Part shown: positions 7,061 through 52,235 of the stretch, piece by piece
Layout: each line of letters opens with the position of its first letter
Numbering within the stretch: position 1 is the first letter of the stretch
Source: Mobula hypostoma
Taxonomy: Eukaryota
Reading direction: 5' to 3'
Length of the DNA stretch: 64,000 nucleotides
Assembly (NCBI RefSeq): GCF_963921235.1
Contig: NC_086108.1
Coordinates: 36,954,001-37,018,000, forward strand
Notes under the pieces: generated by a model
The model's database searches: none
What the model was told of the DNA's origin: nothing
Seen by the model: only the letters and a program-made list of their open reading frames with translations
Program-made: the position numbers and the translations under genes

Positions 7061-8649
7061 AACCCCGTTGGCTCTAACTGATGTAGTGCTGGTATACATT
7101 TCAGGCATTAAGCTCTGTACTGCTACACAGTTCTCCAGTATCTACCAGGGATTGTAATGCCAGTTTTTCTAGTGGAGGGGCTGCTGCAGTGGTCATCATC
7201 CCTAGCAATACAGTGGGCATGCTTTCAATTGAAACTCCTGCTTCTCTATGAAGTTAGTTAAAAAGTGAAAAGAAGGGGAAAAATTTAGCAATTTGGGGGA
7301 TTACCATTAAAAAATCCTTTACTGTTGCTAACAAGGCTTCATGCATGTCAATAGAAAGCTTTTGAGTTAAAGACCCTTCCTAACAGTGATCAGATAACTA
7401 GGGGTGATCAAGTTGTTATTGAAGATTTTAAACATGCTGTTTAGAAGCAAGAAGAAAGGTATCAAATCATTTCATAAGGAGGTTTTTCAAGCTTTCACTA
7501 GTATCATATATCCAAGCTACCAATGTATACAGGCTATTCTTGGGTAATCAGTGGGTTCCATTTTTATAGATACCTTCAACTGAGGTTGTCCATCAATATC
7601 TTTCAATAAGGTAACCATACCTGTACAATATTGTAATGAATGGCACCAAAACACATGCGACTGATAAGGAAGAACAATTTCTAAAAGCGGAGAGAGAGAG
7701 AGAAGGAACTGGTAGGAATAGCATAGGTAGATGTTGGACTTTTGAATTTAACAATATTAGTTGAGCTTGTTTGTGTGTAGGAACGTCCCTTAGTTGGGTA
7801 TTTGTAACCTGGGGATAGCATGTATGGAGGAAATTATCTGAAGTCTTGTCCTAAGTAGAACAAGTATGAAATGCTCTTTATTGAATATTTCATAGGAGTT
7901 GCTCAGAGAAATAAATAACTGAGGGCTACATGGAGAGTGTGAGGAGATCTTGAGGTCTGCTGGAGCAGGAGAGAGGGTCGGAAGGGTACAGGAGGAAAGA
8001 TCATGTCCTTCTGCATCAGAGGACTACAAGGCATCTCTTGTTGTGCTTCAGATCTTCCAGTATACTAGCCAAGAACCTGTGAGACTCCTCTCAAAGGCAC
8101 TAACTCTGCTGGTACTTCAGTCACCATGCACATAAGGTAAAGTGGGTACAGGAAGTTCAATAATTGGGGCAGACATTCTGCCTAACAGTGGTTTCACTGA
8201 ATCTGGCTGTCCCTGTGTAGTCAGGTTGGGAACTTTTCCCCTGAATTGTACCAGAAGCACACTTGTCTTCACTCAAGTGAATGGCACACAGCTGCTGTGG
8301 AAAAGCAAGCTGCTATGTTTATAATATCTGTTTAATTTTAATTATTTTAATTGATATTTGGTGTGTCGAAATTCTCTTTATTTTTATAGTGATAAGTTTA
8401 ATTTTTAATAATATTATTTTATTTTACACATCCCAAGCATTGCAGAATATTTGTGACAAAAGCCATTCAGTAGCTCCAATGATGCCTGAGACAGACAATG
8501 CATCTGGGTTCAGGGTTTCGCTGGACATTATGCTGGAAGAAACAAAGTGGCCTTGGGCGAGCAAGCAATACTTTGGGGTGGTGGAGAACTTCCAGAGTAT
8601 TATGTTGAACGTCCAGAGATATTCAGATAATGGGAATCAGCAATTAGGA

Positions 8650-8748
8650 TCCTCTTCCTATAGATGCTGCTTGGCCTGCTGCGTTCACCAGCAACTTTGA
8701 TGTATGTTGCTTGAATTTCCAGCATCTGCAGAATTCCTGTTGTTTGTG
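8650..8748 (+). repeat. Penelope-like terminal repeat tail fragment
   Basis: gatgctgcttggcctgctgcgttcaccagcaactttga nearly identical to 48282-48320. Confidence 0.85.
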
Positions 8749-9606
8749 CTAAAAAATCAGGTATTTTAGATGGCATATCCTGTTAACACAGCACGCAGTT
8801 TATATTTTTTTTTCTCATTCTTTAAGGTGAAATAGTAAGATCTTAACTGGAAGCCATTGGTAAAGGAATGGTTAAATATCAATGGCTGCAGAAAGTTTTC
8901 TGCTCAAGGCTTATCGACATTTGTAGAAGGAAATGGGCTTAGAAGTGGATACAAAGGTGTCCATAGAAATGGTACATTTCATTCTACTGTATGTATAGTT
9001 ACTTGCCATTTGCATGAAGGAGAGGCACGTTGTTTAAACTCAAAAGTTGGAATTGAATTGACAGATCTAGCCAAAACTTCAAACCCCTCCCCCTCCCCCA
9101 TAGTCCCCTTGTTTGAAGAAACCAACTTTCATTCCTGAGCAGGTAAGCTTCTACCTGACTTGAAAGCCCTCTCTGTATATTGATGATACTGCTTTACTCA
9201 AGAACATTAAAATGTGAGGCATATACTCCATCTGTACTAGTCTCAATATGCAATTGTGTAGCAGGGAAAGCAACTTCCAATGGTTCAGTGGATGTTCTTA
9301 ATATTTTATATTTTGTAATAGGCCCTAACTATGGTGGTGGAGAAGCGTGAGAATTGTGCTTCTTAAATATAATTTGATTTGGAATTCCTTCTTTAGTCAA
9401 ATAGCCCTCTGGTCATGAACTGGCAGAATTATTTGGTATCTGTGGGATGAATGTCAGAAAAATAGTGGCCTAGGCATTAAGAAATACATACCACTGCTGT
9501 AATTTAACCTTTGGGTGTTCAATTATTATTTCAGTAAAGCTATTCTGAATACCCTTGTGTTTGCAGAGCTGTTCGCTGTACTTCAAGACTAGGTCGAACA
9601 AGGAGA

Positions 9607-9817
9607 GCAAACTGATGGAGAAAGTTAGCAGGTCAAGCAACAACTGTGGGAGGGGAATTGTTAATCTTTTGGGTTGAAATTCTATGTCAGTTCTAATGCA
9701 GGGTTTTGACCTGAAATGTTAACAATTCATTTCCCCTCACAGATGCTGCTGGACTTGAGTTCCTCCGGCAGGTTGCTTGTAGCCCAAGATTCCAGTGTCT
9801 GTAGTCTCTTGAGTCTC
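9607..9817. mobile_element. Palindromic mini-element built from two inverted Penelope-type terminal repeats
   Basis: Arms ...gcaacaactgtgggaggggaattgttaa / ttaacaattcatttcccctcacagatgctgc...; centre holds degenerate hammerhead cores on both strands. Confidence 0.7.
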
Positions 9818-11115: not shown

Positions 11116-11124
11116 CTGTAGGTA

Positions 11125-11713
11125 GGAGGGGTGATTGATAAGTTCATGGCCTAAGGTAGAACTAGTCAATCCACATTTATTTTTCAACATAGTCCCCTCT
11201 TACATTTACACACTTAGTCCAGTGGTCATGGGGCATAGAGATCTTGGAGCTCCAGAAAGTGCCCACAGCATGCGTGATTGATAAGTTCGTGGCCTAAGGT
11301 CGAAGAAGATGAGTTATACAGCTCTCGTTACATGCACATGCAGTTCAACTCTTTGAGTTGTTCTGCAGGAAGTTTGAAGTTAATAACTCATCAGTGGTGA
11401 TTGATAAATTCATGGCCTAAGGTAGAAGGAGATATTATCAACTTCAAACTTTCTGCATAATCACTCAAAGAGTTGGACTGCACGTTCATGTAACGAGAGC
11501 TGTATAACTCATCTCCTTCTACCTTAGGCCACAAACTTATCAATCATCCCTGCTGTAGACACTTTCTGGAGGTCCAAGATCCGTATGCTCCATAACCACT
11601 GGACTAAGTGTGTAAATGTAGGAGGGAGGGGACTACATTTAAAAATAGATGTGCTAGGTTTTCTAAAATTGACTCCTTCTACCTTAGGCCATGAACCTAT
11701 CAACCACCCCTCG
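11125..11713. mobile_element. Tc1/mariner-type MITE, almost fully palindromic
   Basis: TIR gaggggtgattgataagttcatggcctaaggtagaa; TA at 11123-11124 and 11714-11715. Confidence 0.85.
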
Positions 11714-11732
11714 TATTTCATTTTAGCAGCTC

Positions 11733-32383: not shown

Positions 32384-32899
32384 ATCACAACAGATCAGAG
32401 ATTTTTTTAAGTCTCTAAATGAAGAAAACCAGACTTTTCTTGACAATACCAGGCTTTAATTATAATTACACCAACTTGGAGGTGAGATTCTAAAGTGTTA
32501 ATGGCTTTTTTTTAAGAGCGATGTGTTTCTTCAGATGACTCATGGCAAAGGAAGCGATCTGTCTTGATCTGGAATGCTTCTAAAAGTTAAAAGACTGTTT
32601 TACGTGATTGACTACTATATAGCTTTGTTTTGGGCTGTAGGCATTTCTGCACTCATTAACTGATTACTTTATTTTGGGACATTGTTTGTTAATTTATACT
32701 TTACTGCACTCAGGTTACAAAACTACAGAAACAACAGTGACAGTTAAGTGGCTGTCTGATATGTAAGTGAGTGATATGGATCACGTACAGGCAGAAGAGA
32801 TTGACATTAATACAGCATTATGTTCGGTGCAGGTATTGTGGCCTGAAGGGGCTGTGCTGGGCTGCACTGTTCTATGTTGTAATCACTCTAGGACTGCCA

Positions 32900-34795
32900 A
32901 CACTGTATTTTCAATCTAAAGCGTTGCTCACCATGAACACTCACTATCATAGGCTTATTTTTGGAGTAACGCCTGCACCTACAATCTGGCGGAAAGTTAT
33001 GGACCAGTTGCTGCAGGGCTGCCCAGCACTCAGTGTTACCTGGATGACATCATTGTTACTGGTGAGGATGACAAGGAACATCTTCAAAACCTCAACACAG
33101 TGTTAAAAAGATTAGAAGATTATGGATTCAGAGCACAATACAACAAGTGTGAATTCTTTAAAACAAGCATCACTTACTGTGGTTACACCATTGATGCATA
33201 AGCTTTACATAAATGTATGGAGAAAATTCAAGAAGCAGGGGATATGACACAGTTGTGGTCCTTTTTAGGTTTTGTCAATTACTATAAGAAATTCCAGCCA
33301 AACCTAGCTACTGCGCTCCACCCCTTGAACTCATTACTACAGATCGGGAAGAAATAGCAATGGACAAAGCAGTGTGACGTGGCTTTAAAAAGACAAAAGA
33401 AATGGTGAGGTTAGACACTGTAATTACACATTGCAATCCACATCATCCAGTGAAGCTTGCCTGTGACACCTTGTGTTATGGTATAGGTGCAGTCATGTCA
33501 CATGATATGAGGGATGGAAGTGACTTTGCATCATGTTCCCTTGCCGCTGCATGGAAAATTGACAGGGAGACCTTGAGTCTGGTTTGGGGTTTAAAATGTT
33601 TCTACCACTACCTGTATGGGAGAGAGTTTACACTCAGTACTGATCATCAACAGCTAGTGTTTCATTTTCAATCCACAGCGGGTGTTCCACTCTCATCAGT
33701 GGCACAAAGGCAGACATGGGTTCTGTTCTTGGAGGGCACAATTACAAGATTGAATTCAAGGGGACAACTAATCACAGAAATGCAATGGATTGTCCCATTT
33801 GCTCTGGAAAAGGAAATACCTGAAAAATTTACAAAAGAAGACACTCCTCTTGACATATTCTGCCTAATGCAAATTGAAAGTCTCCTTATTATGGCAGAGA
33901 TGATCCATAGGGAAACCAAAGTCCCCACACTGTCACAGGTCTATATGGTCACCCAAAATACCTGGAATGTGCAGCAGAAATTCCAGTTCCCCCTGTTATA
34001 CCTGCACCAGGATGAACTTGCCCTTGACAGGGTTACGTTATGTGGGTATTGAGAGTATCTTCCAAGCTGACAGCTAAAGTGTTGGAGGAGCTACATGAGG
34101 GTCACCTAGGCGTGGTCTAAATTAAAGCATTGGCTCGAAGCTTTGTCTGATGGCCTGGGATGGATCAGCAGGTCAAGCAGCTTGCCATGCACTGTTCGGG
34201 AAGCACAAACGTCCAGCAACGCCTCGCCATCCCTGGGAATGGCCTGCATTGACCTGTCAGAGGATTCATATGGATTTTGCCAGACCATTCATGAACACAA
34301 ATTTCTTCATAGTAGTGGATGCAGCTACAAAGTGGCCAGAATGTTCCCAATAGCCTCCCACACGGTTGAGAAGTCTCTTCTCAAGGACTGGTGATCCATA
34401 ACACCTAGTCAGTGACAATGGACCACAGTCTATTGCAGAACAGTTTCAGTCATTCCTGAAAATGAATGCAATGAGACATAATACATCTGCACCATACCGG
34501 CCAGCTACAAATGGCTTGATGGAAAGGTTTGTCCGGGGTCTAAAGAATGAACTGTAATCAATACCAGAAAAATACATTACACTGACACTGAAACAGAAGC
34601 TCACCAATTTCATACTTGCATAGCAGCACATTCCACAATCAATAACTCACCAGCTATACTGTTCTTGGATCATCCCTTGCACTCACACTGAGATCTCCTC
34701 AAATCCAACCTCAGAAGGAATATGCAAGACAAAAGGCTGAGACAAATTGAGGGCATCTCAGACAAGGAGATTTAATATTTCACTCCTGGACAGAA
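32900..34795 (+). pseudogene. Gypsy LTR-retrotransposon pol relic, copy 1 (RT-RNaseH-integrase)
   Basis: YLDDIIVTG at 33037; LACDTLCYGIGAV; RIHMDFA; SDNGPQ at 34411; APYRPATNGLMERFV; many stops and frameshifts. Confidence 0.9.
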
Positions 34796-36860
34796 GATCA
34801 GATTATGGACTCACAGCATGGCACAATATGTGAATTCTTCAAACTAAGCATCACTCACTGTGGTCACACCATTGACACACAAGGTTTTACACAAGTGTGC
34901 TAAGAGAATTCAAGCAGGGGTGGATACCCCTAGGGCAAATGACATGTCACGCGGTGGTCCTTTTTAGGATTTGTCAACAGCTACTGTATAACAGATTCCA
35001 GCCAAACCTGGCTAGTGTGCTCCACCTCTTGAAAACATTACTACAGATCGGGAAGAAATGGTGATGGACAAAGCAGTATGAGGTGGCTTTCCAAAACACA
35101 ATGGAAATGGTGATGTCAGACACTGTATTCACACATTGTGATTGACATCATTCAGTGAAGCTGCCTGTGATGCCTTGCCTTATGGAATAGATGCAGTCAT
35201 ATCACACGTTATGAATGACAGAACTGAATGCCCCATAGCCTTTGCATCACATTCACTTACTGCTGCAGATTGACAGAGGACTTGAGTCTGGTTTGCCATG
35301 TAAAATGTTTCAACCAGTACTTGTATGGGAGAGAGTTTACTGATCATCAACCACTAGTGTCCATTTTCAATCCACAGAAGGCTGTTCCATTAAAATCCTG
35401 CTGCACAAATGCAGAGATGGGCACAATAACAAGATCGAATTGAAGAAGATGACTATTTACTGAAATGTTGATGGACTGTCCCCTTTATCCTTGAAAAATA
35501 AAGTACCTCAAAGTATTTCAAAAGTGCACACAACTCTTAAGGTATTGTCTCTAAAGCAAATTGAACATCTCCCTATAATGACAGAGAAGATCAAAAGCAA
35601 AACCAGAAGAGAACCCATTCTGTCTGAGGTGTAAGCGGCATCCCAAAGTGGTTGGAATGTGCAGCAGAAATTCCAGTTCCCCCATTTGTATCAGCACAAG
35701 GATGAACTTGCCCTTGACGGAGGTCCCCTTATGTGGGGATTGAGGATCGTTGCACCATCCGAGCTGAGAGCTAAGTTGTTTGTCATCTAGGCATGGTCAG
35801 AATGAAAGTGGTGGCTTGAAGCCTTGTCTGGTGGCCTGGGAGAGATCAGTAGATCAAGCAGCTTGCCATGCACTGTTTGGGATGCTGATAGGTCCTGCAG
35901 ATGTCAATAGCAGTGTCTTTCCATCCCTGGGAATGTCCTGCATTGCCCTGATGGAGGATTCATGTGGTTTTGCCGGACCATTCATGGGCAAAAATTTGTT
36001 GGTAGAAGTAGATGCATCTACAAAGAGGCTAGAGGTGTTCCCAATGGCCTCACACACTGCTGATGTGTTGAGAAGCCTCTTCTCAAGGACTGGTATTCTA
36101 TAGCAGTTAGTCAGTGACAATGGATCACAGTTCGTTGCAGAGCATTTTCAGAAGATGTATCATTTCATTTATTTTATTTCCTGAGAATAAATGAAATGAT
36201 ACATATTACATCTGCAACATACCACCCAGCTACAAAAAACTTGGCAGAACAGTTTATGCAGAGTCTAAAAAAAACGCTGTGAACAATGTCAGCAGGGCAC
36301 ACAGTGCATTAATATTGAATCAGAACTTCACCTTCCTCCTTGCATATCACAATGCAGCACACTCCACAACCAACAACTCACCAGCTATGCTGTTTCTGGG
36401 ATGTCCCTTGAACTCACGCTATGATCTTCTCAAACCCAATCTTAGGAGTATGCAGGAAAGGCATCTCAGACAAATTGAAGGCTCCTCAAACAAGGAGATT
36501 CAATGTTTCAGTCCTGGACAAGCAGTCCTGGTGTGGGACCAAAGAGGTGATCAAAAGTGAGTATTTAGAAAGGTAAAGGGAAGTACTGGACCACTCTCCC
36601 ACACGGTGTAGCTAACGTCTGATGTCATCTGGATGCCACACATCGATCAGTTGAGGAAAGCAGAGTCAATTATTAAAGAAGAATAATGTCCAGAGCGGTC
36701 AGAACCGCTTCCTGCAGCCCCAGAGAACAACCAACTCCTACAACTATCATGGAGGAGGCCCCAGAGCCTGAGATTGTTCCACAGCCATGTCTCATCTGCC
36801 AAGCACAGTGACCACCCCCCACCCATCACAAAAGATGTTTCTAGAGTAAGAAATATATAT
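34796..36860 (+). pseudogene. Gypsy pol relic, copy 2 (late RT-RNaseH-integrase and 3' region)
   Basis: Repeats the sequence from ~33115 onward; GFAGPFMGKNLLVEVDASTK; FLLAYHNAAHSTTNNSPAMLFLG. Confidence 0.88.
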
Positions 36861-42480: not shown

Positions 42481-42666
42481 ACAAAAGATTACAGATACTG
42501 GAATCTGAAGCAATAAGAAGCCTGCTGCAGGAACTTAGCAGGTCGAGCAGCATCTTTGGAAAGAAAAGAATCGATGCAGGGTTTCAGCACAAAACACCAA
42601 CAATTCTTTTCTTCCCACAGATGCTACTTGACCTATTGAGTTCCTCCAGCAGAATATTTGTTGCTG
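42481..42666. mobile_element. Palindromic Penelope-tail mini-element
   Basis: ctgctgcaggaacttagcaggtcgagcagcatctttggaaagaaaagaat / attcttttcttcccacagatgctacttgacctattgagttcctccagcag. Confidence 0.75.
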
Positions 42667-43532: not shown

Positions 43533-44030
43533 CATAAACACAAGCGATTCTGCAGATGCTGGAAATCCAGAGTAACACATGGAAGATGCCGGAGGAAATC
43601 AGCAGGTCAGTCAACATAATTGGAAATGAATGCATAACCGACTGGAAAGGAAGGGGGAAGAAGCTAGAGTAGGATGAGGGAAGGGAAGGAGTACCAAGGT
43701 AGAAGGTGATAGGTGAAGCCAATTGGGTGGGGGAGGGGGAATTTAGTAAGAAGCTGGGAGGCGATAGGTGGAAAAGGTGAAGGGCTGAAGATGAAGGAAT
43801 CTGACAGGAGAGGAGAGATTGGGAGAAAGGGAAGGTGAAGGAAGACCAAGGGGAGGTGATTGGTAGGTGAGGTGAAGAGAAAAGGTAAGAGAGGAGACAG
43901 TGTGTGGAATGGAAGAAGAGGATGGGGGAAAATTACCGTTAATCACAAATATCAATGTTCATGTGATCAGGTTGGAGGCTGCCCAGATGGAATATGAAGT
44001 GTTGCTAGTCCAACCTGAGAGTGGTCTCAT
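43533..44030 (-). mobile_element. Penelope-like element 3' end
   Basis: Reverse complement resembles 47850-48330 (QHFIFHLGSLQPDHMNID, CT-rich UTR, tail). Confidence 0.8.
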
Positions 44031-44325: not shown

Positions 44326-45394
44326 AGCTTTGTAGAGATGTCTGTAGGCCTTCAATAAGTTCTCTACACTCCACGTACCCCACTACTGAAATTTGTCTAA
44401 CCTATTGTCCTCCCAAAACCCATATGAAGATTGCAACCTACTCTCCTTCCCACTTTGAATACTGCCACTCTAAAGCACACCAAAAGGAGGATTATTTGGT
44501 AAGTGCTGCTTCATTCTGCATGTACAACAATGATCTGGTCTGTTTCCTGAGTCTGGCAAAGACAGACTGATTGTAAAGCAAAGATACTAACTATAGTAAG
44601 CTGCAACTTCAAGTGATTAATGTCTTTCTGTGGTACTTCTGGATAAAAATGAATTCCAAAAATTGCATGAACAATGTTGCTTTGATCTGAAATTTGATCA
44701 TTTGTTTGTACTTTTTGCCTGTATTTATTAAATGTTACTGGAAGTAAAAGTAATTACAGCCAAATGGACTAAATTTAATATCTGTACTCTGATTCAATTG
44801 AGATTTAAAAAGTGCATTGGAATTGTAATTAACTTAAATATTATATTGGCTTTTAGTTATATCTGTTTCAAACTATGTTAGCTTAATATTCTTAGAAGTT
44901 AGTTTCAGAGGTGAGAACAGAAGATAATCAGGATCATTGCAATATTCAGGAACAATGGCAAGCTATCGATGATAATTTTCTTTCTAAGAACTGTTTACTT
45001 CAATAACACCTCTCAACCAACTTCCAATTTTGATATTGTTCAAGATAAAGAGCAAAAAATAAAAAAAATAATAGAAACAGCGCATAAGAAGGCTTTGAAG
45101 AATCAGTTTTATTTTGAATAATTTAATTTTGAAAGGATAACACAAATATTTAATTCTGCATACTCACTTCTGGTGGACATTGCATTTGCAAAACTGTACA
45201 TGCTGTTGAATTAACCGTGGATCAGAGTGAATAAGGGTGTGTGCTTGATTGGTAATGATGCCCTGTGATTGGAATTCTTTATTCCATTGTATGAAATTGT
45301 TAAGTTTCAAAAATCTTATGCTTAGAAATGAGCATTAATTTAGTTTTCTGTAAAAATCACGCATGAAGTCTACTCTGCACATGATTTATGCCAT

Positions 45395-46439: not shown

Positions 46440-47936
46440 ATGAATTATACTGTCCCTCACAATGTAGACATGCTTCAAGGGGAATATTTTCTAATATGTT
46501 CATATCAGGTAGTAGTAATATTTTTGAACAGAAGCCTTAAAGCCTGGCCTGGCCCCCACCGCTTTATTTTCACCATGGATGTCCAGTCCTTAAATACTTC
46601 CATCCCCCATCAGGAAGGTCTCAAAGCTCTACGCTTCTTTTTGGATTCCAGACCTAATCAGTTCCCCTCTACCACCACTCTGCTCCGTCTAGCGGAATTA
46701 GTCCTTACTCTTAATAATTTCTCCTTTGGCTCCTCCCACTTCCTCCAAACTAAAGGTGTAGCTATGGGCACCCGTATGGGTCCTAGCTATGCCTGCCTTT
46801 TTGTTGGGTTTGTGGAACAATCTATGTTCCGTGCCTATTCTGGTATCTGTCCCCCGCTTTTCCTTCGCTACATCGACGACTGCATTGGCGCTGCTTCCTG
46901 CAGGCATGCAGAACTCGTTGACTTTATTAACTTTGCCTCCAACTTTCACCCTGCCCTCAAGTTTACCTGGTCCATTTCCGACACCTCCCTCCCCTTTCTA
47001 GATCTTTCTGTCTCTGTCTCTGGAGACAGCTTATCCACTGATGTCTACTATAAGCCTACTGACTCTCACAGCTATCTGGACTATTCCTCTTCTCACCCTG
47101 TCTCTTGCAAAAACGACATCGCCTTCTCGCAATTCCTCCGTCTCCGCCACATCTGCTCTCAGGATGAGGCTTTTCATTCTAGGACGAGGGAGATGTCTTC
47201 CTTTTTTAAAGAAAGGGGCTTCCCTTCCTCCACTATCAACTCTGCTCTTAAACGCATCTCCCCCATTTCACGTACATCTGCTCTCACTCCATCCTCCCGC
47301 CACCCCACTAGGAATAGGGTTCCCCTGGTCCTCACCTACCACCCCACCAGCCTCCGGGTCCAACATATTATTCTCCGTAACTTCCGCCACCTCCAACAGG
47401 ATCCCACCACTAAGCACATCTTTCCCTCCCCGCCTCTCTCTGCATTCCGCAGGGATTGCTCCCTACACAACTCCCTTGTCCATTCTTCCCCCCCATCCCT
47501 CCCTACTGATCTCCCCCCTGGCACTTATCCATGTACGCGGAACAAGTGCTACACATGCCCTTACACTTCCTCCCTTACCACCATTCAGGGCCCCAAACAG
47601 TCCTTCCGGGTGAGGCAACACTTCACCTGTGAGTCGACTGGAGTGATATACTGCGTCCGGTGCTCCCGATGTGGCCTTTTATATATCGGCGAGACCCGAC
47701 GCAGACTGGGAGACCACTTTGCTGAACATCTACGCTCTGTCCGCCAGAGAAAGCAGGATCTCCCAGTGGCCACAGATTTTAATTCCACATCCCATTCCCA
47801 TTCTGACATGTCTATCCACGGCCTCCTCTACTGTAAAGATGAAGCCACACTCATGTTGGAGGAACAACACCTTATATTCCGTCTGGGTAGCCTCCAACCT
47901 GATGGCATGAACATCGACTTCTCTAACTTCCACTAG
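46440..47936 (+). CDS. Penelope-type reverse transcriptase / GIY-YIG endonuclease, N-terminally truncated (first ~35 codons are flanking DNA)
   Basis: FTMDVQSLNTSIPH, GVAMGTRMGPSYACLFVG, LRYIDD, LPFLDL, YYKPTD; Cys linker CTRNKCYTC; GVIYCVRCSRCGLLYIGETRRRL..HFAEH. Confidence 0.9.
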   Translation: MNYTVPHNVDMLQGEYFLICSYQVVVIFLNRSLKAWPGPHRFIFTMDVQSLNTSIPHQEGLKALRFFLDSRPNQFPSTTTLLRLAELVLTLNNFSFGSSHFLQTKGVAMGTRMGPSYACLFVGFVEQSMFRAYSGICPPLFLRYIDDCIGAASCRHAELVDFINFASNFHPALKFTWSISDTSLPFLDLSVSVSGDSLSTDVYYKPTDSHSYLDYSSSHPVSCKNDIAFSQFLRLRHICSQDEAFHSRTREMSSFFKERGFPSSTINSALKRISPISRTSALTPSSRHPTRNRVPLVLTYHPTSLRVQHIILRNFRHLQQDPTTKHIFPSPPLSAFRRDCSLHNSLVHSSPPSLPTDLPPGTYPCTRNKCYTCPYTSSLTTIQGPKQSFRVRQHFTCESTGVIYCVRCSRCGLLYIGETRRRLGDHFAEHLRSVRQRKQDLPVATDFNSTSHSHSDMSIHGLLYCKDEATLMLEEQHLIFRLGSLQPDGMNIDFSNFH

Positions 47937-48335
47937 GCCCCACCTCCCCCTCGTACCCCATCTGTTACTTATTTTTATGCACACATTCTTTCTCTCACTC
48001 TCCTTTTTCTCCCTCTGTCCCTCTGAATATACCTCTTGCCCATCCTCTGGGTCCCCCCCCCCCCCGGTCTTTCTTCCTGGACCTGCTGTCCCATGATCCT
48101 CTCGTATCCCCTTTTGCCTATCACCTGTCCAGCTCTTGGCTCTACTCCTCCCCCTCCTGTCTTCTCCTATCATTTTGGATCTCCCCCTCCCCCTCCAACT
48201 TTCAAATCCCTTACTCACTCTTCCTTCAGTTAGTCCTGACGAAGGGTCTCGGCCTGAAACGTCGACTGCACCTCTTCCTAGAGATGCTGCCTGGCCTGCT
48301 GCGTTCACCAGCAACTTTGATATGTGTTGCTTGAT
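46545..48335 (+). mobile_element. Penelope-like retroelement (Neptune-type), 5'-truncated, young
   Basis: Uninterrupted RT + GIY-YIG frame, CT-rich 3' UTR, terminal repeat with hammerhead core; CpG retained. Confidence 0.95.
48231..48268 (+). ncRNA. Minimal type-I hammerhead ribozyme
   Basis: tAGTC-CTGACGA-agggtctcggcct-GAAAC-GTC-GACTg: intact core boxes, stem I AGTC/GACT, stem II, GUC triplet. Confidence 0.8.
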
Positions 48336-48364
48336 ATAACAACGATATTGTGTTTCTCCTATGT

Positions 48365-49245
48365 AACGCTTTATGGCTCCAGTGATCACTGATTGGTGTT
48401 CAAATCCATCGCTATCTGTAAGGAGTTTGTATGTTCTGCCCATGATCACATAGATTTCTTCAGATTTCTTCCCACATTCCAAAGACATACAGGTAAGCGT
48501 TTGTAACTTGAGGGCGTGCTATGTTGGTGCCTGAAGCATGGTAACACTTGCGGGCTACCCCCAACACATCCTAGGACACAAAGTCAGAATCAGGTTTATT
48601 ATCGCTGGCATGTGACATGACATTTGTTAACTTAGTAGCAGCAATTCAATGCAATACATAATATAGAAGAAAATAATAATAATAAAAATAAATAAGTAAA
48701 TCTTATTCAGTATACTTTATACAGTATACGTATATTGAATAGATTATAAATCGTACAAAAAAAAAGAAATACTATATATTAAAAAAAAGTGAAGTAGTGT
48801 CCAAGGGTCAATGTCCATTTAGGATTCGGATGGCAGTGGGAAAGAATCTGTTCCTGAATCGCTGATGGTAACAGTGAGAAAAGGGCATGCCCTAGGTGCT
48901 GGAGGTCCTTAATAATGGACGCTGCCTTTCTGAGACACCGCTCCTTGAAGATGTCCTCGGTACTTTGTACGTTAGTACCCAAGATGGAAGTGACTAAATT
49001 TACAACCCTCTGCAGCTTCTTTCATCCTGTGCAGTAGCCTCCTTGCCCCCATACCAGACAGTGATGCAGCCTGTCAGAATTCTCTCCACAGTACATCTAT
49101 AGAAGTTTTTGAGTGTATTTGTTGACATACCAAATCTCTTCAAACTCCTAATAAAGTATTAGGTGTATAAACTCCTAATAAACTCTGTTGGTTGTTGAAA
49201 CAAAAGATGCATTTCACTGTATGTTTCGATGTTTTGATGTTTTTA
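48365..49245 (+). mobile_element. V-domain tRNA-SINE split by a LINE fragment
   Basis: B-box-like gttcaaatcc; V domain ggagtttgtatgttct...cccacattccaaagac; tail resumes ~49185 (gatgcatttcactgtatgtttcgatg). Confidence 0.75.
48582..49165 (-). mobile_element. Rex1/Babar 3' fragment inside the SINE
   Basis: EDIFKERCLRKAASIIKDLQHLGHALFSLLPS; tail cagaatcaggtttatt. Confidence 0.85.
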
Positions 49246-51561: not shown

Positions 51562-52036
51562 GGAGACACAAAGCAATGTACACAAAATGCTGGAGAAACT
51601 CAGCAGGTCAGGCAGCATCCATGGAAATGAACAAACTGTCAACGTTTCGGGCTGGGATCCTTCTTCAGGACTGGAAAGGAAGTGGGAAGACGCCGGCATT
51701 AAAAAGGTGGGGGGTGGGGGAGGAGCAAAAAGGATAGCTAGCAGGTGATAGGTGAAGCCAGGGAGGAGAGGGAGAGGGAGATTTTTTTTACTGGAAGGAG
51801 AAATCGATATTCATGCCATCAGGTTGGAAGTTACCCAGCCAGAATGTAAGGTGTTGCTCCTCTATGCTGAGGGTGGCCTCATCATTACACAAGAGGAGGC
51901 TGGGGACCTATATGTCAGAATGGAACTGGGAATCAGAATTAAAATCTTACGCCACTGGGAAGTTCTGTATTTAGCTGACAGAGGAGAGGTGCTCAACATA
52001 GCTGTCCCTCAATTTACGAAGGTCTCACCAATGTAG
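51562..52036 (-). mobile_element. Penelope-like element 3' end with hammerhead-like motif
   Basis: Reverse complement of the GIY-YIG C-terminus (cf. 47680-47930) and terminal repeat; core at 51638-51672. Confidence 0.85.
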
Positions 52037-52037
52037 T

Positions 52038-52235
52038 GGAGACACAAAGACTGCAAATGTTGGAAATACTGGAAGAATGCAGCAAGTTAGGCAGCATTGA
52101 TATAGGGAAATGGATAGTCACCATTTCAGATTAAGGGTCTCGTCCTGAAACATCAACTGATCATTTCCCTCCTTAAATGCTTTCTGACCTTCTCTATTCC
52201 TCTGGCATTTTGTATGTCAATCCAGAATCTGGAAA
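52038..52235. mobile_element. Palindromic Penelope-tail mini-element
   Basis: ggcagcattgatatagggaaatggatagtcaccatttcag / aagggtctcgtcctgaaacatcaactgatcatttccctccttaaatgc. Confidence 0.65.

What the first reader, a model, noticed from the sequence alone, without database searches (positions are those of the whole stretch)
48231..48268. Minimal hammerhead ribozyme in the Penelope terminal repeat
Seen: CTGACGA (48236-48242), hairpin agggtctcggcct, GAAAC (48256-48260), GTC triplet (48261-48263), and AGTC/GACT closing stem I. Helix III is reduced to the palindrome ACGT. Established: Penelope-like elements carry minimal type-I hammerheads in their terminal repeats, thought to cleave as dimers through the palindromic helix III. 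Inference: this copy has an intact core and could self-cleave after C48263, cutting any + strand transcript, including a host intron, that runs through it.
Basis: partly seen in the sequence, partly recalled or inferred. Interest (0 to 1): 0.7.

Follow-up and report, generated by a model that had tools for sequence, protein, structure and literature searches.

The report
Penelope hammerhead relic in a ray
The flagged 37 bases match the already described minimal hammerhead ribozyme motif and sit at the end of a truncated, mutated Penelope-like jumping gene in what is likely a ray genome; this lone copy is predicted to misfold and probably does not cut RNA by itself.

Summary
The motif is real. 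It is the only match in the 64 kb to the published minimal-hammerhead descriptor (Cervera & De la Peña 2014); 1 of 500 shuffles gave a match. It lies in the single 3' terminal repeat of a 5'-truncated Neptune-type Penelope-like element (46548-48334). The closest protein is 93% identical and comes from a devil ray. The core is intact, but helix II closes with G·U instead of the usual G-C. The activity claim is weak. The copy has no tandem partner. With its own 5' flank the motif is predicted to refold, and stem I pairing drops from 0.97 to 0.05 or less. In print, single minimal hammerheads did not cleave, and the anole one cleaved only with the element's protein. I found no host gene in the window, so the intron-cutting idea has no support here. 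Eight of the other nine motif-spanning copies have 2-5 core changes. The scan noted this motif family before in this genome. Verdict: an ordinary member of a known class, likely inert.

The parts
46548..47936 (+). 5'-truncated ORF of a Penelope-like element: RT core from the middle onward (YIDD kept), thumb, C-X4-C-X2-C linker, GIY-YIG endonuclease. Three positions fixed in relatives differ here (one in RT, two in the endonuclease).
   Evidence: RVT_1 E 0.003 and GIY-YIG E 0.011, both under the Pfam cut-offs; 93% to a Mobula hypostoma protein; relatives run up to about 340 residues further N-terminal.
47937..48334 (+). 3' terminal repeat (pLTR / 3' UTR). It ends without the optional tail that other copies carry.
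   Evidence: one copy only for this element; loose ends behind 48334 in all 4 runs; contig 7 of run X1 spans 48309-48434 with 0 differences; the copy at 8651 runs on into the tail.
48231..48235 (+). Stem I, 5' strand
48236..48243 (+). First core box C3-A9 plus the extra unpaired A typical of PLE minimal hammerheads
   Evidence: consensus in the PMC4209133 supplement
48244..48255 (+). Helix II, 4 pairs with a 4-nt loop. The core-proximal pair is G·U rather than G-C, likely from CpG decay.
   Evidence: at 11.1, C in 3, T in 6 and A in 1 of 10 copies.
48256..48263 (+). Second core box GAAA, loop-less palindromic helix III (48259-48262) and the GUC triplet; predicted cut after 48263
48264..48268 (+). 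Stem I, 3' strand
48217..48229 (+). Pyrimidine-rich 5' flank predicted to pair with the core box and the start of helix II, blocking the hammerhead fold
48283..48313 (+). Conserved downstream box with a short hairpin (48297-48313). It is as conserved as the core among window copies; possibly the protein-binding or RT-start signal (inference).
   Evidence: (0.81 against 0.79)

Best explanation
The 37 bases are a minimal type-I hammerhead motif in the 3' terminal repeat of a 5'-truncated Penelope-like retroelement, likely of the Neptune clade, and this copy is probably a passive relic that would cleave little or not at all. In the active parent element the motif would sit in both terminal repeats of a tandem precursor RNA. 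Two motifs would pair through the ACGU palindrome, or the element's own protein would refold one motif, and the RNA would be cut after C17 at a low rate (taken from published PLEs, not shown here). This copy was most likely made by reverse transcription that stopped inside the RT gene. It kept one repeat and lost its cis partner. It has since gathered changes in the RT and endonuclease and, likely, one C-to-T change in helix II. The core is probably intact because the copy is fairly young, not because the host selects it.
For: Descriptor match above chance. Position in the 3' repeat of an RT + GIY-YIG ORF, the arrangement that Table S1 of PMC4209133 lists for 5'-truncated PLEs. Single repeat, and no second + strand copy with an intact core in the window. 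Predicted misfolding in context: stem I probability 0.97-0.99 in the 40-mer, 0.05 with 15 nt of flank, 0.00 in the 4 longer contexts; hammerhead shape 8-9 kcal/mol above the ensemble. A double hammerhead in trans lies 10-17 kcal/mol above two folded monomers. Of 10 motif-spanning window copies, 2 have an intact core and 8 have 2-5 core changes, with CpG-type decay. Three residues fixed in 14 of 14 aligned relatives differ in this ORF. Literature: single min-HHR inactive and dimers weak (PMC4209133); anole PLE HHR cleaves only with protein, is not needed for insertion in vitro, and shows no RNA-seq ends at the site (PMC11167929).
Against: No cleavage assay or raw RNA reads were available, so inactivity is predicted, not shown. 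ViennaRNA leaves out the non-canonical core pairs, Mg2+ and protein help, so it undervalues hammerhead folds, and I ran no control on a known active min-HHR. All 11 core positions and the GUC triplet are intact. G·U at 10.1-11.1 occurs in several published min-HHR representatives, so it need not block cleavage. The family is very abundant and is held in runs guessed to be RNA, so partners in trans may exist.
Confidence: 0.85

Rival explanations
1. The copy is a working, conditional ribozyme. The family's RT-endonuclease protein, or another family RNA pairing through ACGU, refolds it and cuts any + strand transcript that passes through.
For: Intact core. Protein-assisted cleavage shown for the anole PLE (PMC11167929). 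Summed contig depth over 48232-48326 is about 0.9-1.6e7 against 61 at the unique flank in run X1, so the family is very abundant (not a copy number).
Against: No host gene found. Trans dimer disfavoured, and the palindrome across the cut site pairs more strongly (-7.5 kcal/mol) than helix III (-1.7). No RNA ends at the site in anole data (PMC11167929).
Confidence: 0.08
2. In this family the motif is kept mainly as a structural or protein-binding signal for reverse transcription and fold-back priming, and cleavage plays no part even in active elements.
For: HHR mutants did not change insertion in vitro (PMC11167929). Three palindromic relics in the window have their centres in or beside the motif. 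The downstream box is as conserved as the core. Contig ends pile at both edges of stem I.
Against: The catalytic boxes and cleavage triplet are kept across animal phyla (PMC4209133), and C3/G8 compensation rescues cleavage in the anole element. This rival does not change the verdict on this copy.
Confidence: 0.2
3. The match is chance.
For: The sequence-only pattern is at chance level. Rfam finds no hammerhead. The fold z-score is only -1.15.
Against: Descriptor with helices: 1 of 500 and 0 of 5000 shuffles. It lies where PLEs are known to carry it. A second, diverged copy keeps all core positions.
Confidence: 0.01

Closest known systems
Minimal hammerheads (min-HHR) in the pLTRs of metazoan Penelope-like elements (Cervera & De la Peña 2014, PMC4209133; main text parts 1-2 of 4 and the whole supplementary PDF read)
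   Same: Fits the published descriptor. Extra nucleotide after A9, loop-less palindromic helix III, short stem I, pyrimidine-rich flanks, and a single 3' motif in a 5'-truncated copy.
   Different: Helix II is 4 bp and closes with G·U, not the G-C consensus. No cartilaginous fish is listed in that paper's Table S1 or Fig. S3.
PAc (Poseidon) hammerhead of Anolis carolinensis (Frangieh et al. 2024, PMC11167929; parts 1-2 of 4 read)
   Same: pLTR hammerhead of a vertebrate endonuclease-bearing PLE; optional 3' tail.
   Different: PAc is Poseidon clade, full length and tandem. This copy has the Neptune-type linker, is truncated and lacks the tail.
Neptune clade of EN+ PLEs (Craig et al. 2021, PMC8557442; passages read)
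   Same: [quoted passage not shown]
   Different: This copy has lost the N-terminal part and the last His of CCHH. The clade was not tested by a tree.
Non-LTR retrozymes of animals (PMC7229834, passages; bioRxiv 10.64898/2026.07.22.740005, part 1 of 5 and passages)
   Same: Type-I hammerhead, PLE-related; reported in one chondrichthyan.
   Different: Retrozymes are non-coding tandem repeats. This motif is single and attached to a PLE ORF.

Membership tests
PLE minimal hammerhead (min-HHR) | Fits the descriptor: stem I 3-7 bp, CUGANGA(+N), stem II 3-7 bp, loop 3-10, GAAANNUH | tested here: met
PLE minimal hammerhead (min-HHR) | Palindromic 15.2-16.2 and an extra nucleotide between 9 and 10.1 | tested here: met
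PLE minimal hammerhead (min-HHR) | G10.1-C11.1 pair (consensus, not absolute) | tested here: not met
   G·U here. C in 3 of 10 window copies. G·U also occurs among published representatives.
PLE minimal hammerhead (min-HHR) | Located in the pLTR of a PLE | tested here: met
PLE minimal hammerhead (min-HHR) | Core conserved and stems covarying across copies | tested here: inconclusive
   Core 87/110 majority agreement against 58/109 and 105/156 in the flanks, but 193/237 in the downstream box. Pairing 66.7% against 17-46% for slid registers; covariation score reached by 24 of 500 shuffles, other measures not above shuffle. Only 10 decayed copies.
Active hammerhead ribozyme | Site-specific self-cleavage after H17 | not testable with these tools
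   No assay; the runs held are contigs only. Folding predicts against.
Canonical type-I hammerhead (Rfam models) | Rfam hit; 6-bp helix I with loop 1-loop 2 contact; stable helix III | tested here: not met
   both flanks are pyrimidine-rich, so no distal helix I
Neptune-clade PLE | [quoted passage not shown] | tested here: met
   C-X4-C-X2-C; definition in PMC8557442
Neptune-clade PLE | CCHH motif in the endonuclease | tested here: inconclusive
   Three of four residues present; the last His is present in 14 of 14 aligned relatives but changed in this copy
Neptune-clade PLE | RT tree placement with named Neptune references (against Nematis) | not tested
   No named reference sequences were available from the tools
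Non-LTR retrozyme | Non-coding tandem repeats with one hammerhead per unit | tested here: not met
   Single motif behind an ORF

The most novel reading that the evidence does not exclude
Rays carry so many transcribed copies of this motif that solitary copies are switched on in trans, by the element's protein or by another copy's RNA, and cut host nascent transcripts. The upstream anti-core hairpin would be the off-switch, and intact motifs would be depleted on the sense strand of introns.
Probability: 0.04. Interest if true: 0.6.

Novelty: new member of a known kind. Interest (0 to 1): 0.12.

Why it matters
As it stands it matters little: it adds a ray to the animals whose Penelope-like elements carry minimal hammerheads. 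What these motifs do in living cells is still open (PMC8557442, PMC11167929). A genome with this many copies would be a good place to test it by population statistics (strand bias in introns, RNA end mapping). This single truncated copy is a poor test object.

Tried and rejected
Own genome: none held, so no genome-wide count or strand-bias test. Rfam: no hammerhead hit; the PrrB_RsmZ and PsrR1 hits are far below their cut-offs and were treated as chance. Collection scans with a 19-nt motif from downstream of the hammerhead gave 114 metagenome loci and 1 viral locus; 0 of 115 had a hammerhead upstream, so all were dropped as chance. Host gene: a splice-site scan gave 26 candidates, none convincing. 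Pfam on all 282 frames of 62 aa or more gave retroelement domains (RT, RNase H, zf-RVT), three ALKBH8_N matches in frames of LINE-like repeats (two above cut-off; read as LINE C-termini, from recall) and four sub-threshold matches. Three exon-like frames (8419-8640, 1746-2033, 44896-45003) found no homologue. These blanks are weak: short exons or a very long intron would be missed. Sequencing runs: no RNA holder listed; all 4 runs laid are contigs, so no RNA ends or strand. The two runs guessed to be RNA had no depth at 48346-48364, which is no evidence either way. The variant table showed 40 of 120 rows, none inside 48232-48268, so the family's letter at 11.1 stayed unresolved. Target-site duplication: none convincing. 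The anti-core hairpin as a conserved switch: the second intact-core copy (51641-51668, minus) misfolds in a different way, so this is not shown. A measured effect of G·U at 10.1-11.1 was not found in the passages read. No paper on this motif in sharks or rays was listed by searches; supplements of the 2026 bioRxiv preprint were not seen and may list one.

Full report
Observation. The sequence-only hammerhead pattern is uninformative here (6 hits, 5.3 expected). The published min-HHR descriptor (PMC4209133 Fig. S7, read) matches once in the window, at C3 = 48236. One of 500 window shuffles and 0 of 5000 shuffles of the terminal repeat gave any match; my own stricter descriptor agreed. Folding of the 40-mer puts A48243 unpaired and helix II at G44·U55, G45-C54, G46-C53, U47·G52, so the core-proximal pair is a G·U wobble. 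Rfam models do not pick the motif up, as expected for a motif with no real helix III or distal helix I.

Context. The motif lies about 300 bases behind the stop of a 462-codon stretch (46548-47933) with RT and GIY-YIG matches. The best of 892 relatives is a Mobula hypostoma protein at 93%, followed by Hypanus (77-88% among the top hits), sharks (62-71%) and mostly unnamed, partly marine-invertebrate proteins near 50%. The window is therefore likely from a ray. Alignment with 15 of these relatives shows that the copy starts in mid-RT, up to about 340 residues short of the longest relatives. One RT tyrosine, the conserved endonuclease arginine and the last CCHH histidine, each present in 14 of 14 aligned relatives, differ here. 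The C-X4-C-X2-C linker points to the Neptune clade as defined in PMC8557442 (passages); no tree was made. The element has only a 3' repeat, ends at 48334 without the optional tail, and shows no clear target-site duplication. The 3' junction is held without differences by a contig of one public DNA run, which may be the source sample.

The family. nhmmer finds 16 further matches in the window at E up to 10, of which 7 pass the inclusion threshold. I aligned 14 of them with the focal copy; 9 span the motif. Two of these 10 have an intact core, and 8 have 2-5 core changes, with CpG-type decay at 15.2-16.2 and 11.1. The core agrees with the majority letter in 87 of 110 cells, the 5' flank in 58 of 109, the 3' linker in 105 of 156, and the downstream box in 193 of 237. 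So the core is more conserved than the adjacent flanks but not more than the downstream box. Pairing in the named helices is 66.7% against 17-46% for slid registers, but covariation is marginal (24 of 500 shuffles for the score; 54 to 313 of 500 for the other four measures). In public DNA runs the summed contig depth over 48232-48326 is about five orders of magnitude above the unique flank, and contig ends pile at 48232 (3 of 4 runs) and 48268 (4 of 4 runs), the two edges of the motif (24 of 1866 loose-end rows shown). This fits a very large family whose subfamilies share the motif and differ beside it, though truncation and a small indel in the linker also feed these piles.

Would this copy cleave? 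This is not testable here, and three lines point against it. First, there is no cis partner: the only other intact core is on the opposite strand at 51641-51668 and has a broken helix II. Second, with 15 or more bases of its own 5' flank the core pairs with the upstream pyrimidine tract. Stem I probability falls from 0.97-0.99 to 0.05 and then 0.00, and the hammerhead shape lies 8-9 kcal/mol above the ensemble. A trans double hammerhead lies 10-17 kcal/mol above two monomers. These energies omit core tertiary pairs, Mg2+ and proteins, and no active min-HHR was folded as a control, so they are suggestive only. Third, the literature: a single Schistosoma min-HHR gave no detectable cleavage and dimers little (PMC4209133). 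The anole PLE motif cleaved only when the element's protein was added, its mutants did not change insertion, and RNA-seq showed no ends at the site (PMC11167929). Against this, all core positions are intact, and G·U at 10.1-11.1 appears among published representatives.

Host transcript. No host exon was found by a splice-site scan, by Pfam on 282 of 282 frames of 62 aa or more, or by homology searches with three exon-like frames. This does not exclude a long intron. It leaves the intron-cutting idea without an identified target or strand.

Mechanism. Shown: the motif, its place in a truncated PLE, the single repeat, and decay of sister copies. Taken from published PLEs: tandem precursor RNA, dimer or protein-assisted folding, and weak cleavage after C17. 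Inferred: the copy arose by incomplete reverse transcription, its core is intact through youth, and it is inert or nearly so.

Novelty. The class was described in 2014, including in fish Neptune, Poseidon and Xena elements and in 5'-truncated copies with one 3' motif. That paper lists no cartilaginous fish, and searches listed no paper on the motif in sharks or rays. A 2026 preprint reports hammerhead retrozymes in one chondrichthyan (supplements not seen). Earlier notes of this scan report the same family in this genome (81 notes fit the words, 8 shown); these are leads, not support. The result is a new member of a known kind, of low interest.

Noticed in passing
window 9606-9777, 42509-42665, 52064-52210: Three decayed palindromes (61-73% self-complementary) made of two back-to-back terminal-repeat ends, with centres in or beside the hammerhead. 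They fit the known head-to-head inverted pLTR structures of PLEs (PMC3846280, passages).
   Followed up: partly
window 51583-52035, minus strand: A second, diverged PLE 3' end (74% identical over the endonuclease end) with an intact core, a GUU triplet and a broken third pair in helix II.
   Followed up: partly
window 43575-43660, minus strand: A pLTR copy that lacks the whole hammerhead core; the 5' strand of stem I runs straight into the 3' strand, likely a deletion between the two GTC repeats.
   Followed up: no
window 46542-46551: The 5' junction carries a 5-base repeat and a 10-base match to 48289-48298 in the element's own terminal repeat (E 0.48); possible microhomology or template jump, or chance.
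   Followed up: no
window 47454: A strong splice-acceptor-like site inside the PLE ORF on the + strand. It may explain why some ray gene models carry this ORF under host gene names (P0003, P0005).
   Followed up: no
window 44896-45003, 8419-8640, 1746-2033, + strand: Exon-like open frames in non-repeat DNA; no homologue found.
   Followed up: yes
window 11123-11715: Nested long inverted repeats (192 nt at 89%), MITE-like.
   Followed up: no
window 32771-36557: Decayed LTR-retrotransposon-type RT and RNase H frames with an internal duplication of about 1.7 kb.
   Followed up: no
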